Shown: piece after piece, positions 14,358 through 19,955 of the stretch | How positions within the stretch are numbered: position 1 is the first letter of the stretch | How the letters are laid out: each line of letters starts with the position of its first letter | Assembly (NCBI GenBank): GCA_029838215.1 | Contig: JALGVI010000050.1 | Coordinates: 1 to 21,872 of the forward strand | Reading direction: 5' to 3' | Origin: Candidatus Helarchaeota archaeon | GTDB lineage: Archaea; Asgardarchaeota; Lokiarchaeia; Helarchaeales; RDOG01 | DNA length: 21,872 bases | Made by a program: the position numbers and the translations under genes | Notes under the pieces: model-generated | The model's database searches: none | Told to the model about the DNA's origin: nothing | Seen by the model: the letters and a program-made list of their open reading frames with translations, nothing else

Positions 14358-15005
14358 TTATTTACTTTTCCTTCTTTTCTCTTTCTTATCCTTTCCTAAA
14401 AATGAATGAACAATATCGTAGGCTTTCTTTATTCCAAGATGATAATCCAATTCTTTAAGGTAGTTATCAAGTATTGTTGGTTTTCCCTTTAGTGCTTTTT
14501 GAACTTCATCAGCCATGTTTAGGTTCTGAAATTCGTTAATGAAGTCATCGTGTTCCTTTTTTAATCGGCTATAAATCCTTTTCTCGATGTCTTCCTTTAG
14601 TTTTTCTAAATCTTTCTTTTGAAGCTTGCTATATTCACCTTGAGTTATGTTGTCGATAATTGGCTTTATTTCGACTTCGTCCAGCCTTTTTGATCGCCCT
14701 TTTGTTGTTTTGAATGGAACTGATGCTTCCAGTATTTTTTTATTATCAAATAATTGCTTGAATAAAAATTTTCTCTTGTCTTCTAATTCCTGTAGTTTTG
14801 CATATTTCCTTGCATCATCTTCGATGTTCCAGCTAAGATTTTTTATCACGTCTCTAACGGTTCTATCAGGATGCTTGTCGGTAATATGAATTTGTCCTTC
14901 GATAATGTCGGGGAAAACGGAATTACAAATCTTGCACTTGCATTTTATTAAATACCTTTGTCTTTGAATTAATTTAATTCTCTTTTCTGCCAGGGATTTG
15001 CTCAT
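14358..15005 (-). CDS. C2H2 zinc-finger / helical protein, third gene of the topoisomerase VI operon
   Basis: CKICNSVFPDIIEGQIHITDKH = C-x2-C-x3-F-x8-H-x4-H. The ATG at 15005 overlaps the top6A TGA as ATGA; the track start at 15011 is a TTG. Confidence 0.75.
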   Translation of the reverse strand: MSKSLAEKRIKLIQRQRYLIKCKCKICNSVFPDIIEGQIHITDKHPDRTVRDVIKNLSWNIEDDARKYAKLQELEDKRKFLFKQLFDNKKILEASVPFKTTKGRSKRLDEVEIKPIIDNITQGEYSKLQKKDLEKLKEDIEKRIYSRLKKEHDDFINEFQNLNMADEVQKALKGKPTILDNYLKELDYHLGIKKAYDIVHSFLGKDKKEKRRKSK

Positions 15006-16237
15006 ATCCAATCCCCCGTTGCCAGTTTTGTCGGCAAGTAAGTTTCTGTAAGGAATTCAATTCCGTGAGAAGAAAGTGCCTGGATTTCGGCTTTCTTTTT
15101 CAGGCTTTTCATCAATTGCAGGTCTTCAACCCATCTGGGATTTTGTTTTACGAATGGTTCTTCAAGCATTTGGTCGCATCGATCTAAATCCGAATCGGAC
15201 ATGTCAAGTCGGCACTCTTTTGGGATCCTGTATGTTTCCAAATCGCGGCTGAGAACGCCAATCAGGTGCATTTTCGGTGTTGCGACAAATGGAGATTCAT
15301 ACGATAGTCTTTTACTCCCCCTCAAATAAACACTGTAAATGTAATGTCCGTATGGATCGGAATCAACCAAACAGAATACAGGCAACGTCAATTCTTTCGA
15401 AAGCTTCCGTAAAAACATTCGCGTGGCGATATCTGCCGATCCTTTTCCCGTTAGAATTATGCAGGGATAATCATTCCACCATTTTTCTTCAGAAAGTCGG
15501 ATGAGCGCTGCATCCTTTTCGACTACAAGTATGAATTCGGCATCAGACTCGACAATTTCAATGGTATCGAGCATGGGTGTAATGCTCCAGCCACCCGTCC
15601 CTAATTTTTGAAGGTCAATCACGTCTCCTGCATTTCGAATCTTTAGACGCCCTATACACATGCCCTTTGCAGAAGCAATGACGTGAGTGGAGTTCCGGAT
15701 GCACCGCAGCATTGCTGCCATATCTTCAATGCTTTTATCGCTATTTTTCTGGTCTTGATAGAGACCCGCTGCCATGTAATACATTTCACGCTTTGTTGTA
15801 TGCTTGTTCTTGACAAGAATTTCATTCGTATCCCGAAGTATTCGTATCAATCTCGTTGCATCCATTACACTCCCAAGATGGTGAAATGGTCTCTGCGTGA
15901 TTTGTTCTCCCAACAGAAGCAAGTCATGTTCTTCATTATAAATGATATTTTTTGATGAGCGGGATGGAATTTCAAAAGTTGGGGACCCGCTTGTAAGAAT
16001 CTCGCGATATATTTTGTCTGCAACATCATAAAGACGTTCTAGCGTGTCCTCACGTCTCAAATCGTCTACTTTAACAACATCGGGAGGCAATTTTGGAATT
16101 GTCGACTCTTCTTCTTCCAACTTTTTTCTTATCATATGTAATTTGAAGAATTTGTTAGAAATTTTGGATATCTTTTCTTTCTTTGAGGTTTTTGAAGTTT
16201 TTTTAACTTTTTTTGGTTTCGGAGTTCGAGCGGACAT
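15002..16237 (-). CDS. top6A: DNA topoisomerase VI subunit A (Spo11 family) with Lys-rich N-terminal tail
   Basis: IPSRSSKNIIY, TTKREMYY (catalytic Tyr motif), VEKDA and DSDPYG TOPRIM motifs, and KKAEIQAL. The start is placed at ATG 16237 because GGAGG lies at 16246-16250; the track start is 16252. Confidence 0.95.
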   Translation of the reverse strand: MSARTPKPKKVKKTSKTSKKEKISKISNKFFKLHMIRKKLEEEESTIPKLPPDVVKVDDLRREDTLERLYDVADKIYREILTSGSPTFEIPSRSSKNIIYNEEHDLLLLGEQITQRPFHHLGSVMDATRLIRILRDTNEILVKNKHTTKREMYYMAAGLYQDQKNSDKSIEDMAAMLRCIRNSTHVIASAKGMCIGRLKIRNAGDVIDLQKLGTGGWSITPMLDTIEIVESDAEFILVVEKDAALIRLSEEKWWNDYPCIILTGKGSADIATRMFLRKLSKELTLPVFCLVDSDPYGHYIYSVYLRGSKRLSYESPFVATPKMHLIGVLSRDLETYRIPKECRLDMSDSDLDRCDQMLEEPFVKQNPRWVEDLQLMKSLKKKAEIQALSSHGIEFLTETYLPTKLATGDWI

Positions 16238-16238
16238 T

Positions 16239-19200
16239 TCATTCGCCTCCATTCATGTCTAAATCGGAATCGGTATCTTCTTGTATGATGATTTCCTCCT
16301 CTTCGTCCAGCATTTCTTCTTGGGTTTCCGCTTCCCCAGGAATCGTGATGATCTCGGGTTCTTCGAATTCTTCTTCTTCGTCTTCGACTTCTTTTGCCAA
16401 TCTCCACACGGGAATTTTTATTCCTTCGACTTCCCTCTTTTCCATTAGAACCCAACCGCGTTCGACGAGATTATTCAAAATTTCGTCAATCATGTGCTTT
16501 GCTACCTTACTCGTGTTTTCAGACAGACCCAGATCTTCCATTATTTCGGACCGATTCTCCCAATGGGTCGATAATATGCTTAAAATGTCTTTTTCGACTT
16601 CTCGCTTGATCGGTTCGGTCAATTTCTCTTCGATCGTGTCTTGGCTAAGACCGTTTTCCTTGTATCGGCCAGATCTTTCGAGAATCGTGCAAAGAGATGC
16701 AGCAAATTCCTTCACGTTACGTAATAGCAAAGATGCACGCCTGGCTCGGCGGCGTTTCTTCTCACGTTTTGTGATATAATTTCTCAATCTACGTCCAACT
16801 TGCTCTATTGCAAGTTTTATCTCTTTCTTGAGGTTTTCATCATCAGCCAACGCTTGTTTCGATTGAGATTTAAACATCACGTGCACGAATGGACCCGACA
16901 CGTTGATGATCACGCGTATCTTTCCTCGAGGTAACCTATTTTCAAACGTGTCTACTTTATAATTCTTCCAATTGACTTCAGCGGCGGCTTTCCAAATTTG
17001 ACAATCGGAATTATCCCTGAGTTTAGGGGTTCTATTGACAAACCTAAAAATAACATCAGTTGCACGCGATGCGGGCTTGATGTCTCCGCCATAAGCAACG
17101 GCGACTTCGACTCCAAAAGCCAGTCCTTTTCCACTGGTCGGGTTTCGCGTTTCGGCATCACAGAAAGCAGGATTAAATTCTTTCTCTATCACTCTAATGA
17201 GGTTTTCAGCACCAACGGGAACAACCGTATCGGTTGGCGGGGCTAAATATTTTTCAGAAATGAAGGACTGATACAATGCATTCACGTGTTCTTCATCAAG
17301 TGAAGAGGGATCAAGCATTTCGAGGCTGTTTGACCCTCCCAACGAATCGTTTGTCTTATCAAGAATTGCTTCAATTTCAGCGGATGAAAGATTTGAAAAA
17401 CTTCGTTTTATTGCAGTCTGGATTTGTTTTGTATTTGCTGTTGACATTATTTCTTTTAGATTATTGAGTGAAATAGAAGCAGGACACTTTGGCAATGTCA
17501 TCATTTCATCATAAAGAACCCTTAGCTCTTTGCCCGTGAGTTCACTTAGAGACTTATCGTTCACGGATGAAAAGCCCAACGCTTTTGTAATCGTTGCGAG
17601 GAGATCATTACGTGCTTTTGACTTGATTTCTTTATACTTATTTCGAAGAATGCTTGAAATTGTCTTGCTTGCATTTTCTTTTAATGTCTTCGTGAAATCA
17701 TCAAATAATATGGTTGGAACAATTTTTTCAAGTTCGGCATGAATGATTTGAGTTTCTTTTTTCTTCAATTCTGAAACAGGAAGAGAGTTCAGACTTTTAT
17801 ATCCGAGTTTTTTGTCAGCGTTCTCAATTATTTTTTTTATCATATTCGTGTTTATTGAACAAAAATCCTTTGATAAGAAATCCGAAAAACTCTTGCCATT
17901 TTCTTTAGCAAGCGTTTTAAATCTCTTGAAACTGATCGAATATGGACAGTTAATTGATTCTCTAACAATTTCTTGTATTGTTTTAATTTCTTCCTTGGAG
18001 ATTTCACCAACTTTCTTTTTCGGCTGCCCGTATTTATTCATGATCTTTTTGACATAATCTCCTGAAACATCCTTGTAATTCTTCTTCAAGTGAGCATCAA
18101 GTTTTTCTTCAGGTGTTTCTTCCATTTTTTTTAGAACGACGTCGGCGGAATTTCTTTGAAAACAGTCCACCTTTGAAGTTATGTTACGATATAATGCCCT
18201 TAATTGCCTATCATCTAATTTATCGGGCGAGACGGAAAAGATGTTTACAGATGTTCCAAGAGCTTTGTTTGCATTTTCGATTATAGTTTTTGCTTTTTTC
18301 TTGCTCATTCGGACAAAATGTTCGGAAAAAAGCGAGACCAAATCAGCATGAGGATTATTTCTCAGGAGTTCTTGAAAATCACCAATGGAAACACTTGATG
18401 GATGGGGTTTTGCGTAATTGGGTTCTTGTGGGAACGATTGAACTTTCCGTGGATAGATCGTGGTGGTTCCGTAGGTATCGATAAATACTATGTTAACATG
18501 TCCATTCAACAGTGCTGTTTGACGAATATATTCATCGGCATAACCACGTATGTATCGTTTATTCTGGTAAAATAGTTTAACATACGTCCCGTGCTTGAAC
18601 CGAGTTCTAAATTCATCGGGTTCTAATTCATATTTCTTTTCATTTTTTTCTGTCGTGTAGAACGCCGAGATGGTTGCAGCAGGTTGACTGGCATGACGAG
18701 TGATGACGACGATCGGTTTTGCACTTGTATTCTGCGCATCTGAGAATGCAGATGATGCACCAAATCCCTGAGATCCTCTCGTTTGTTTTAAATTTTTGCT
18801 CTTTGATGAAGCCAGATATAACCCGAATTTTTCCAGATCTTCCTGTATCATCCCTATTCCGTTATCGAGAATTTCAAAGCAAAACAACCTTACATCTTCA
18901 GACTCATCGAGTGTCTCAACTTTTTCAATCTCGCGCAAGCGTATGATTAAAATGGGCTCTTTATCGATGACATCAAAAACAGGTTCTATGAAGTTGTGAA
19001 ACTGTCTTACCAAAGTCTTTTTCGAAATATCGTGAAAATCAAAATCTTCCAAGACTTTGGAAATTTCGCCTTTTTCATTTTTTTGAGGTGGATTCCACTT
19101 AAAATTAAAGCCCTTGTCAATGCGGTATGCTTTTTCCTTCCAATATGCTGTTTCTATGGCATCCAAGGAATTATCAATAAATTCTACCGCATATTGGGTA

Positions 19201-19955
19201 TGCTTGTGATATCCAAAGTCAAAACCAACAAGTTGGGTTCTTTTTCGCATGAACTCGGCGATTCCTCCTTGTCGAATAACGCCTTTTTCGGTTTTTTCGG
19301 AAACAGATTCTTTCTTGGTTGTTTTGCGTTTCACGATTCTCTTTACGGGAGTTTTTCGCCTCGAATTACGCGCTTTTTTCTTAGGTTGTTTTTCAACAGG
19401 TTTTTCTTTTTTAGTTTCTATTGGCACCGGTTTCTCCTTTGGAGTTTCAACTTCTACTGGAGCTTCTTCAATTACGGGCTCCGACTTCTCTTCCGATTCA
19501 ATTTCAATTTTTGGTTCGGGCATCTTTACTTTCTTGGTAGAGCCCTTTTCAGGTTTTAATTCAACAGAAGCCGCAGGTTGAATTTTTGTAGGAATTTTAT
19601 CTTCAATTGTAAGAGTTTTTTGAATCGGTTTTTGCGTCTTTTTCTTTTTTATTTTTGATGTCTTGACAGGTTTTGACTTTTTTTTCTTGGGTTTTTCTTT
19701 CATAGAAGGTTTTTTCGGGATTTCTTGGACGAGCTTATATCGAGTATCTTTTTTCGCCCCTTTTACCTTAATTTTATCTTGTAATTCAAGCCTTTTTAAT
19801 TGTTTTTTAAATTGGGCACCTATCTTGCGGATCTCTTCTTTCGTCTCGCCTTTCTTTATCACTTTCTTGACCAGATCACCCAGTGATAACCATTCTTTGG
19901 ATGAGCTTAATTCCTCTAAAGTCTGTAAAACGATATCTTGAGTTATTAGGGGCAA
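16239..19955 (-). CDS. top6B: DNA topoisomerase VI subunit B, greatly extended (1238 aa)
   Basis: GHKL motifs VEFIDNSLDA, DNGIG, SSK...QTRGSQGFG and HGTYV; KPHP-H2TH; transducer APPTDTV, EVAVAYGG, RFVNRTP, VNWKNY and FKSQSKQAL. TTG start with GGACGTGA 4 nt upstream. Confidence 0.95.
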   Translation of the reverse strand: MPLITQDIVLQTLEELSSSKEWLSLGDLVKKVIKKGETKEEIRKIGAQFKKQLKRLELQDKIKVKGAKKDTRYKLVQEIPKKPSMKEKPKKKKSKPVKTSKIKKKKTQKPIQKTLTIEDKIPTKIQPAASVELKPEKGSTKKVKMPEPKIEIESEEKSEPVIEEAPVEVETPKEKPVPIETKKEKPVEKQPKKKARNSRRKTPVKRIVKRKTTKKESVSEKTEKGVIRQGGIAEFMRKRTQLVGFDFGYHKHTQYAVEFIDNSLDAIETAYWKEKAYRIDKGFNFKWNPPQKNEKGEISKVLEDFDFHDISKKTLVRQFHNFIEPVFDVIDKEPILIIRLREIEKVETLDESEDVRLFCFEILDNGIGMIQEDLEKFGLYLASSKSKNLKQTRGSQGFGASSAFSDAQNTSAKPIVVITRHASQPAATISAFYTTEKNEKKYELEPDEFRTRFKHGTYVKLFYQNKRYIRGYADEYIRQTALLNGHVNIVFIDTYGTTTIYPRKVQSFPQEPNYAKPHPSSVSIGDFQELLRNNPHADLVSLFSEHFVRMSKKKAKTIIENANKALGTSVNIFSVSPDKLDDRQLRALYRNITSKVDCFQRNSADVVLKKMEETPEEKLDAHLKKNYKDVSGDYVKKIMNKYGQPKKKVGEISKEEIKTIQEIVRESINCPYSISFKRFKTLAKENGKSFSDFLSKDFCSINTNMIKKIIENADKKLGYKSLNSLPVSELKKKETQIIHAELEKIVPTILFDDFTKTLKENASKTISSILRNKYKEIKSKARNDLLATITKALGFSSVNDKSLSELTGKELRVLYDEMMTLPKCPASISLNNLKEIMSTANTKQIQTAIKRSFSNLSSAEIEAILDKTNDSLGGSNSLEMLDPSSLDEEHVNALYQSFISEKYLAPPTDTVVPVGAENLIRVIEKEFNPAFCDAETRNPTSGKGLAFGVEVAVAYGGDIKPASRATDVIFRFVNRTPKLRDNSDCQIWKAAAEVNWKNYKVDTFENRLPRGKIRVIINVSGPFVHVMFKSQSKQALADDENLKKEIKLAIEQVGRRLRNYITKREKKRRRARRASLLLRNVKEFAASLCTILERSGRYKENGLSQDTIEEKLTEPIKREVEKDILSILSTHWENRSEIMEDLGLSENTSKVAKHMIDEILNNLVERGWVLMEKREVEGIKIPVWRLAKEVEDEEEEFEEPEIITIPGEAETQEEMLDEEEEIIIQEDTDSDLDMNGGE
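17241..18401 (-). repeat. Five tandem H2TH-like protein repeats (72-80 aa) inside Top6B, aa 519-905
   Basis: Units start PSSVSIGDF / FQRNSADVV / PYSISFKRF / PTILFDDF / PASISLNNL. They share the F/Y-x2-[MVIL]-S/N/K...K-I-I/M core and end with [LI]-x3-[EQH]-[LIV]-x2-[LI]. Confidence 0.8.

What the first reader, a model, noticed from the sequence alone, without database searches (positions are those of the whole stretch)
17241..18401. Five tandem H2TH-like domains in Top6B instead of one
Seen: between KPHP (aa 516-519) and APPT (aa 905-908), where canonical Top6B has a single H2TH domain, there are about 390 aa comprising five diverged repeats (approx. aa 519-598, 599-670, 671-746, 747-824, 825-903). 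Three end in Cys. Established: the H2TH domain contacts and helps bend the gate DNA segment. Inference: an array could engage a much longer DNA arc, altering crossover recognition or allowing gyrase-like wrapping. The divergence between repeats argues for old duplications rather than an assembly artefact.
Basis: partly seen in the sequence, partly recalled or inferred. Interest (0 to 1): 0.75.

Follow-up and report, generated by a model that had tools for sequence, protein, structure and literature searches.

The report
Topoisomerase VI-B with five H2TH domains
This Asgard archaeon's only topoisomerase VI ATPase subunit has five tandem copies of the small DNA-contacting H2TH domain where known enzymes have one; the design is conserved, I found no paper describing it, and its function is untested.

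Summary
Window 16239-19955 (-) encodes a 1238-aa Top6B with conserved ATPase and transducer motifs, followed by top6A. Between the GHKL and transducer domains, aa 519-903 form five tandem units of 72-80 aa.

- **Sequence:** four units are related by plain sequence (z 3.2-15.4). The second (R2) is seen only by profile. All five match a profile of 55 canonical Top6B H2TH domains (hhalign 97.6-99.1%).
- **Structure:** AlphaFold2 gives five four-helix units (pLDDT 82.9). The most diverged unit, R2, superposes on the M. mazei H2TH domain (Z about 11, rmsd 1.8 A). The R3-R4 model matches the S. shibatae H2TH domain (Z 10.4).
- **Conservation:** 28 orthologues keep exactly five units with nearly fixed lengths. 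Units group by position in a tree, and there are no DNA-level repeats. The duplications are therefore old, not an artefact.
- **Distribution:** in the sampled class, the array was found only in the window's own order (Helarchaeota-labelled).
- **Likely DNA contacts:** R1-R4 are basic and R1 keeps the canonical DNA-contact arginine. R2 has Asp there, and R5 is acidic.

The most likely function is an extended arm for the bent G-segment's distal DNA, which is inference. Gyrase-like wrapping is unsupported. I found no paper on tandem H2TH domains. This scan earlier reported other Asgard Top6Bs with C-terminal HhH arrays, a different design.

The parts
16239..19955 (-). top6B gene, 1238 aa (P0001). 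It is the only Top6B transducer match in the genome.
   Evidence: PF09239 1e-40; PF13589. NF003218 at 370 bits, above its cut-off of 274; one match in a 94%-complete genome.
19263..19955 (-). N-terminal extension, aa 1-231 (small helical domain plus a Lys/Pro-rich tail). It is lineage-variable and not part of the array.
   Evidence: for the sequence; orthologue lengths range 14-295 aa with 30% identity.
18411..19262 (-). GHKL ATPase domain, aa 232-515, with conserved N-box, G1 and G2 motifs. It carries about 70 extra residues (aa 271-361) relative to M. mazei.
18162..18401 (-). H2TH unit R1, aa 519-598. It has the strongest basic face: R549 (equivalent to M. mazei K268, 100% Arg), K552, K554 and K556.
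   Evidence: 99.1% to canonical H2TH.; net charge +3.8 on average.
17946..18161 (-). H2TH unit R2, aa 599-670. It is the most diverged unit, with Asp at the K268-equivalent column.
   Evidence: weak on single sequences; 97.6% to canonical H2TH; model residues 93-165 match M. mazei Top6B 236-308 at Z 10.3 (9o8p_B, rmsd 1.9 A, 72 aligned) and Z 11.3 (9o0g_B, rmsd 1.8 A, 73 aligned; wider printed range)..
17718..17945 (-). H2TH unit R3, aa 671-746.
   Evidence: 98.1%; the R3-R4 model (pLDDT 89.8) matches S. shibatae H2TH 230-309 at Z 10.4, rmsd 1.9 A over 77 residues. Which of the two units was aligned is not reported.
17484..17717 (-). H2TH unit R4, aa 747-824, with a KGIGK-type turn in the orthologue consensus.
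   Evidence: 97.9%..
17247..17483 (-). H2TH unit R5, aa 825-903. It is net acidic, lacks the K268-equivalent basic residue, and leads directly into APPTD and the transducer.
   Evidence: NF003218 aligns 825-1123 to profile positions 239-513; 98.7%; net charge -4.1 on average..
16587..17240 (-). Transducer domain and stalk, aa 906-1123. The switch Lys (KSQSKQA) and WKxY (NWKNY) motifs are conserved.
   Evidence: PF09239 at aa 906-1072..
16239..16586 (-). C-terminal extension, aa 1124-1238 (small helical domain plus acidic tail) and the stop codon. It is not part of the array.
15002..16252 (-). top6A, 416 aa, overlapping the end of top6B. It has the 5Y-CAP and Toprim domains.
   Evidence: PF21180 1.7e-57 and PF04406 1.5e-15.

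Best explanation
Shown: the gene encodes this archaeon's only detected Top6B, with all ATPase and transducer motifs conserved. Its single H2TH domain has been replaced by five tandem H2TH-fold domains. The five arose by old internal duplications in one Asgard lineage, and both the number and the length of the units have been held fixed since. Inferred: the array is a shaped arm on the outer face of each B subunit that lengthens the enzyme's contact with DNA beyond the roughly 70 bp that canonical topo VI holds. R1 is the best-conserved basic unit and keeps the canonical contact arginine. R3 and R4 are basic and probably add contacts. R2 and R5 have lost that residue and more likely serve as structural connectors; R5 probably packs against the transducer. 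In the canonical enzyme, H2TH contacts couple ATP-driven B-subunit dimerisation to G-segment bending and cleavage. A longer arm would therefore be expected to raise the minimum DNA length, or the preference for bent or plectonemic DNA. It should not change the strand-passage chemistry.
For: Identity of the units:
- Profile matches to canonical H2TH are 97.6-99.1%.
- The AF2 model shows five four-helix units, pLDDT 82.9 and pTM 0.63.
- Structural matches to solved Top6B, Fpg/MutM and S13 H2TH domains reach Z 8-11 at rmsd 1.8-2.0 A.

Constraint on the array:
- 28 orthologues have arrays of 410-423 aa including flanks.
- Per-unit length sd is 0.4-0.6 residues (1.8 for R4), while the protein termini vary from 10 to 295 aa.
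- Units cluster by position in a tree.

Enzyme integrity:
- The N-box, G1, G2, switch Lys and WKxY motifs are conserved across the class.
- top6A is adjacent, and this is the only Top6B match in a 94%-complete genome.

DNA-binding reading:
- R1-R4 are net basic, +1.7 to +3.8 on average.
- R1's conserved basic residues sit at profile columns 31, 34, 36 and 38, the two-turn and helix-3 face. Column 31 is M. mazei K268.
- M. mazei R263, K268 and K308 contact DNA arms in cryo-EM (PMC13040014).
- H2TH mutants lose DNA bending and short-duplex cleavage (PMC5922973).
Against: No DNA-bound model or experiment exists. R2 carries Asp (93%) at the key contact column, and R5 is acidic with only two conserved basic columns, so at most three or four units look DNA-competent. 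The inner units are the least conserved (32-37% identity against 48-51% for R1 and R5). I could not read model coordinates, so the shape of the array is unknown: rod, arc or closed bundle. The array's two ends must both join the GHKL-transducer junction, which may force a compact fold rather than a long arm.
Confidence: 0.55

Rival explanations
1. The extra units are a scaffold or spacer. Only one unit (R1) does the canonical DNA-contact job. R2-R5 form a rigid platform for protein partners, such as chromatin proteins or the small zinc-finger-like protein encoded after top6A, or simply reposition R1.
For: R2 and R5 have lost the K268-equivalent basic residue and R5 is acidic. Strict conservation of unit lengths suggests that geometry matters more than surface. 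The same protein carries other appendages at both ends. Plant topo VI is known to need accessory proteins (PMC9665070).
Against: R3 and R4 keep conserved basic residues at or near the H2TH turn. Every H2TH family matched by fold binds nucleic acid: Top6B, Fpg/Nei, S13 and sIHF. No partner has been identified.
Confidence: 0.27
2. Gyrase-like wrapping. The two arrays guide the G-segment arms over the ATP gate so that a contiguous T-segment is presented. This would give a chirality bias or even a supercoiling activity.
For: No GyrA (PF00521) was found in this 94%-complete genome. In M. mazei topo VI the DNA arms already arch upward and partly over the enzyme (PMC13040014).
Against: There is no evidence of a chiral wrap. 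The fold is helical H2TH, unrelated to the GyrA C-terminal beta-pinwheel. [quoted passage not shown] Two of the five units look DNA-incompetent.
Confidence: 0.07
3. The array binds RNA or another ligand, or is drifting toward loss of function.
For: S13 uses the same fold on rRNA. The inner units have low identity.
Against: Five units are kept at fixed lengths in all 28 orthologues at 28-63% identity, with invariant residues in every unit. The array sits inside an essential DNA enzyme.
Confidence: 0.06

Closest known systems
Canonical archaeal Top6B (S. shibatae 2ZBK/1MX0; M. mazei 2Q2E and the DNA complexes 9O8P/9O0G)
   Same: Same domain order: GHKL, then H2TH, then transducer. The same catalytic motifs are present and the partner top6A is adjacent. 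Each unit superposes on the solved H2TH domain at rmsd 1.8-2.0 A.
   Different: There are five H2TH units (385 aa) instead of one (about 77 aa). There are extra terminal appendages and a GHKL insert. The turn residue equivalent to K268 is kept fully only in R1.
Mainstream Asgard Top6B (MAGs labelled Loki-, Thor-, Hermod- or Hodarchaeota; for example P0050, P0078, P0093)
   Same: Also about 1100-1300 aa, with an enlarged region between GHKL and transducer.
   Different: That region is 232 aa. It is one H2TH domain split after helix 3 by an unrelated insert of about 140 aa, not a tandem array.
Other H2TH proteins: Fpg/MutM/Nei glycosylases, ribosomal protein S13, sIHF (SCO1480)
   Same: The same small helical fold, used to grip the nucleic-acid backbone; Z 7-9 to unit R2.
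   Different: Every structural match covered a single unit of at most about 77 aligned residues. No solved chain aligned across two or more units.
Giant Asgard Top6B with C-terminal HhH arrays (earlier notes of this scan, unpublished) and Methanopyrus topoisomerase V with tandem (HhH)2 domains (from my own knowledge)
   Same: A topoisomerase core joined to an array of small helical DNA-binding modules.
   Different: Those arrays use a different fold (HhH) and are appended after the core. Here the enzyme's own internal H2TH domain is multiplied in place. I did not test the earlier notes.

Membership tests
Topoisomerase VI subunit B (type IIB) | GHKL/Bergerat ATP-binding motifs (N-box Glu/Asn, G1 DxGxG, G2 GxxGxG) | tested here: met
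   EFIDNSLDA, DNGIGM and GSQGFG are present. The key residues are 100% conserved in 26 orthologues. PF13589 matches, and the domain aligns to 2q2e_B and 2zbk_B.
Topoisomerase VI subunit B (type IIB) | Transducer domain with the switch lysine and WKxY motif | tested here: met
   PF09239 at 1e-40. KSQSKQA and NWKNY are conserved.
Topoisomerase VI subunit B (type IIB) | Curated whole-protein family score | tested here: met
   NF003218 scores 370 bits against a cut-off of 274. TIGR01052 scores 320 bits, below its cut-off of 380.7, as expected for a protein interrupted by the array.
Topoisomerase VI subunit B (type IIB) | Partner Top6A with 5Y-CAP and Toprim domains | tested here: met
   The adjacent overlapping gene at 15002-16252 (-) matches PF04406 and PF21180.
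Topoisomerase VI subunit B (type IIB) | ATP-dependent strand passage | not testable with these tools
   This needs the purified A2B2 enzyme.
H2TH fold (Top6B, Fpg/Nei, S13, sIHF) | Sequence-profile homology of each unit to canonical Top6B H2TH | tested here: met
   hhalign probabilities for R1 to R5 are 99.1, 97.6, 98.1, 97.9 and 98.7%. After iteration, an HMM dominated by single-copy Top6Bs finds all five units at E<1e-4.
H2TH fold (Top6B, Fpg/Nei, S13, sIHF) | Four-helix fold that superposes on solved H2TH domains | tested here: met
   R2 scores Z 10.3-11.3 at rmsd 1.8-1.9 A against M. mazei 236-308. The R3-R4 model scores Z 10.4 at rmsd 1.9 A against S. shibatae 230-309; which of the two units aligned is not reported. 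R1 and R5 were not separately superposed, but they show the same helix pattern.
H2TH fold (Top6B, Fpg/Nei, S13, sIHF) | Basic DNA-contact residue at the two-turn motif (M. mazei K268) | tested here: inconclusive
   R1 has Arg in 100% of orthologues. R4 has Lys one column earlier in 71%. R3 has Lys/Arg in a minority (40-59%). R2 has Asp in 93%. R5 has none.
Gyrase-type DNA-wrapping domain (GyrA C-terminal beta-pinwheel) | Beta-pinwheel fold | tested here: not met
   The array is all-helical.

The most novel reading that the evidence does not exclude
The paired five-domain H2TH arms wrap a much longer stretch of the G-segment (well over 100 bp) around the closed ATP gate. This would make a type IIB topoisomerase that presents its own contiguous T-segment, and so has a built-in chirality bias or supercoiling activity in a genome where no gyrase was found.
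Probability: 0.07. Interest if true: 0.9.

Novelty: new variant of a known kind. Interest (0 to 1): 0.6.

Why it matters
The H2TH domain is the element that lets topo VI sense and enforce DNA bending and couple ATP use to cleavage (PMC5922973, PMC13040014). A natural enzyme with five of them, held at a fixed number and spacing, is a ready-made test of how the length of the DNA-arm contact sets substrate choice in type IIB topoisomerases, the ancestors of the meiotic Spo11 complex.

It also adds to a pattern. Asgard archaea, the closest known relatives of eukaryotes, have elaborated this enzyme in several independent ways. This order has the tandem array, most other lineages have a split H2TH, and earlier notes of this scan report C-terminal HhH arrays in Hodarchaeales-type genomes. 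I found no paper describing tandem H2TH domains.

Tried and rejected
- **Assembly artefact or recent repeat:** rejected. There are no DNA-level repeats, and 28 orthologues from other assemblies share the design.
- **A 1, 3, 5 series of unit numbers** (PHP-to-APPTD distances of about 77, 232 and 389 aa): rejected. The 232-aa class is one H2TH domain split by an unrelated insert.
- **Foldseek on the whole 410-aa array:** only weak E-values (0.4-1). The top rows were annexins at rmsd 17-18 A, which I regard as meaningless. The Top6B H2TH rows had probability 1.00 over 65-77 columns.
- **Search for a solved multi-unit H2TH arrangement:** none aligned beyond one unit.
- **Homodimer prediction of the array** (two copies): no verdict, score 0.00. 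This is evidence neither way.
- **Haloarchaeal long Top6B:** none was among the proteins fetched. The 780-1090-aa single-H2TH proteins I checked (P0146, P0155, P0165) match intein-containing models, so the comparison was not made.
- **The four invariant cysteines as a Cys4 metal site:** considered. C670 and C824 occupy the position of H518 of the PHP motif at unit starts. A predicted beta-bridge puts C670 near C699. Without coordinates I cannot tell whether all four converge, so this is left open.
- **Shape of the array and its position on the enzyme core:** not obtainable.

Full report
**The gene and its surroundings**

The window is low-GC (about 38%). On the minus strand, 16239-19955 encodes a 1238-aa protein, P0001. 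Its end overlaps a 416-aa gene at 15002-16252.

Pfam finds a GHKL ATPase match (PF13589, aa 360-446) and the Top6B transducer (PF09239, aa 906-1072, 1e-40) in P0001. It finds the Top6A 5Y-CAP and Toprim domains in the downstream protein. NCBIfam's Top6B equivalog NF003218 scores 370 bits against a cut-off of 274, matched in five separate stretches.

Neighbouring genes are ordinary chromosomal ones: CoaBC upstream, acyl-CoA-synthetase-like genes, and an LVIVD-repeat protein. This is the only Top6B transducer match in a 94%-complete, 3.6-Mb assembly. Close homologues carry Helarchaeota, Lokiarchaeota or Promethearchaeota labels.

**Is the repeat real?**

K516-P-H-P519 and A905-P-P-T-D bracket 385 residues. 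The five proposed units align to one another without adjustment.

- On single sequences, Smith-Waterman scores against 300 shuffles give z 3.2-15.4 for all pairs among R1, R3, R4 and R5. The lowest is R4-R5, at z 3.2 with 2 of 300 shuffles reaching it. R2 is marginal, at z 0.7-3.1.
- I sliced each unit out of an alignment of 28 orthologues (A2) and compared the profiles. Each unit matches the others at 93-99% hhalign probability. Each matches a profile of 55 single-copy canonical Top6B H2TH domains at 99.1, 97.6, 98.1, 97.9 and 98.7% for R1 to R5.
- An HMM iterated until single-copy Top6Bs dominated it still finds all five units at E<1e-4.
- There is no DNA-level tandem or long direct repeat.

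**Fold**

AlphaFold2 on the array with the 28-row alignment gives mean pLDDT 82.9 and pTM 0.63, with five consecutive four-helix units.

- In the VIA alignments, the best-matched part of the model is residues 93-165, which is R2, the unit most diverged in sequence.
- R2 superposes on the M. mazei Top6B H2TH domain (236-308) at Z 10.3, rmsd 1.9 A over 72 residues (9o8p_B). 9o0g_B gives Z 11.3, rmsd 1.8 A over 73 residues, with a wider printed range.
- It also matches the S. shibatae H2TH domain (231-307), Fpg/MutM H2TH domains (Z about 8), ribosomal S13 and sIHF.
- A separate model of R3-R4 (pLDDT 89.8) matches the S. shibatae H2TH domain (230-309) at Z 10.4, rmsd 1.9 A over 77 residues. The next unrelated hit scores Z 6.1. 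The tool does not say which of the two units was aligned.
- No solved chain aligns across more than one unit.

All five are homologous by profile.

**Conservation and history**

Twenty-eight cluster representatives, at 28-63% identity over the array, have the same five-unit architecture. Their arrays are 410-423 aa including 14-residue flanks.

- In 26 full-length orthologues, unit lengths are almost invariant: sd 0.4-0.6 residues, and 1.8 for R4. The N- and C-terminal extensions vary from 10 to 295 aa.
- Mean pairwise identity is 0.63 for GHKL and 0.71 for the transducer. It is 0.51 and 0.48 for R1 and R5, and 0.32-0.37 for R2 to R4.
- In a tree of all units plus canonical H2TH domains, units group by position. 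The five together form a clade apart from nearly all canonical domains, with support 0.83-0.89 on a short alignment.

The duplications therefore predate the divergence of these lineages, and the number five has been held since.

**Distribution**

- In 150 other genomes sampled from the same GTDB class, R2-R4 were found only in the window's own order: 3 of 6 genomes there and 0 of 144 elsewhere.
- Among GTDB species representatives, four loci carry the full array. Two MAGs each labelled Odinarchaeota and Baldrarchaeota have a match of single-domain length.
- Among the proteins fetched, the PHP-to-APPTD distance falls into three classes: 70-86 aa (canonical), about 232 aa (59 proteins, the mainstream Asgard form) and 380-400 aa (29 proteins, this form).
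- The 232-aa class is not three units. It is one H2TH domain split after helix 3 by an unrelated insert of about 140 aa.
- A sister family in the same order has a different, 1348-aa Top6B (P0264, labelled Helarchaeota). It probably has two or three H2TH-like units, at hhalign 96%, 72% and 95%. This rests on three sequences only.

**What the units look like functionally**

The literature establishes the role of the canonical H2TH domain. It touches the distal arms of a G-segment bent by more than 180 degrees. In M. mazei, R263, K268 and K308 contact DNA. H2TH mutants lose nucleotide-dependent bending and short-duplex cleavage and uncouple ATPase from strand passage (PMC5922973, PMC13040014).

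I mapped these positions through the HMMER alignment and the unit profile. K268 corresponds to profile column 31.

| Unit | Column 31 and nearby | Mean net charge |
|---|---|---|
| R1 | Arg in 100% (R549), plus conserved Lys/Arg at columns 34, 36 and 38 | +3.8 |
| R2 | Asp in 93% | +1.7 |
| R3 | Lys/Arg in a minority (40-59%), plus columns 38-39 | +2.2 |
| R4 | Lys at column 30 in 71%, within a KGIGK-like turn | +2.2 |
| R5 | no basic residue | -4.1 |

The array is thus not five equivalent DNA readers. R1 looks like an enhanced canonical unit. R3 and R4 are plausible extra contacts. R2 and R5 look like connectors.

The enzyme's catalytic motifs are conserved throughout the class: N-box, G1, G2, switch Lys and WKxY.

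**Mechanism**

My best reading, at about 0.55, is an extended, geometrically fixed DNA-contact arm. It would lengthen the G-segment interface and so shift the dependence on DNA length, bend or supercoiling. The steps from fold and charge to DNA binding are inference.

- A scaffold or partner-docking role for most units is the main rival, at about 0.27.
- Gyrase-like wrapping has no support beyond the absence of GyrA from this 94%-complete genome. Gyrase has a patchy distribution in Archaea (PMC9348778), so its absence here predicts nothing. I put this reading at about 0.07.

One structural caveat applies. Both ends of the array must return to the GHKL-transducer junction, so the array may be an arc or a compact body rather than a rod. 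I could not inspect coordinates.

**Novelty**

Full-text searches found no description of tandem H2TH domains. The papers checked were two Top6B phylogeny and structure surveys that include Asgard sequences (PMC9665070, PMC11302465) and the archaeal gyrase/Top6B co-evolution paper (PMC9348778).

Earlier notes of this scan describe giant Asgard Top6Bs with C-terminal HhH arrays in other genomes. That is a different fold and position, and I did not test those notes.

Noticed in passing
P0050, P0078 and P0093 (proteins); loci L010-L044: Most Asgard Top6Bs fetched (59 proteins, labelled Loki/Thor/Hermod/Hod) have a 232-aa H2TH region. It is one H2TH domain split after helix 3 by an insert of about 140 aa, with a beta-like segment and a Lys/Glu-rich helix. 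I found no paper describing it.
   Followed up: partly
L049:1094-5140 (+), protein P0264: A sister family in the same order has a different, 1348-aa Top6B with two or three probable H2TH-like units, at aa 815-894, 916-961 and 1016-1078. Its relative P0266 (2053 aa) also carries HhH-type (PF14520) matches.
   Followed up: partly
P0217 (716 aa): An unrelated Top6B shows two full H2TH profile hits (aa 314-382 and 445-510). The second appears to lie inside the start of the transducer.
   Followed up: no
window 18873-19145 (-), aa 271-361: The GHKL domain has about 70 extra residues between the N-box and the G1 box relative to M. mazei Top6B (residues 57-77).
   Followed up: no
window 18528-18557 (-), aa 467-476: The loop equivalent to the M. 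mazei KGRR crossing-sensor reads [RK]Y[IRK]RGYAD throughout the five-unit class. The two arginines after the glycine are replaced by Tyr-Ala.
   Followed up: partly
window codons for C598 (18162-18164), C670 (17946-17948), C699 (17859-17861) and C824 (17484-17486): Four cysteines are invariant in all 28 orthologues. C670 and C824 sit where R1 has H518 of the PHP motif. A predicted beta-bridge places C670 next to C699. A metal site or redox pair is possible but untested.
   Followed up: partly
window 14358-15011 (-): A small gene directly downstream of top6A has no Pfam match. Another first-reader note reads it as a C2H2 zinc-finger accessory-subunit candidate.
   Followed up: no
window 19263-19955 and 16242-16586 (-): Top6B also has an N-terminal helical domain with a long Lys/Pro-rich tail and a C-terminal helical domain with an acidic tail. 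Both vary greatly in length among orthologues (10-295 aa).
   Followed up: no
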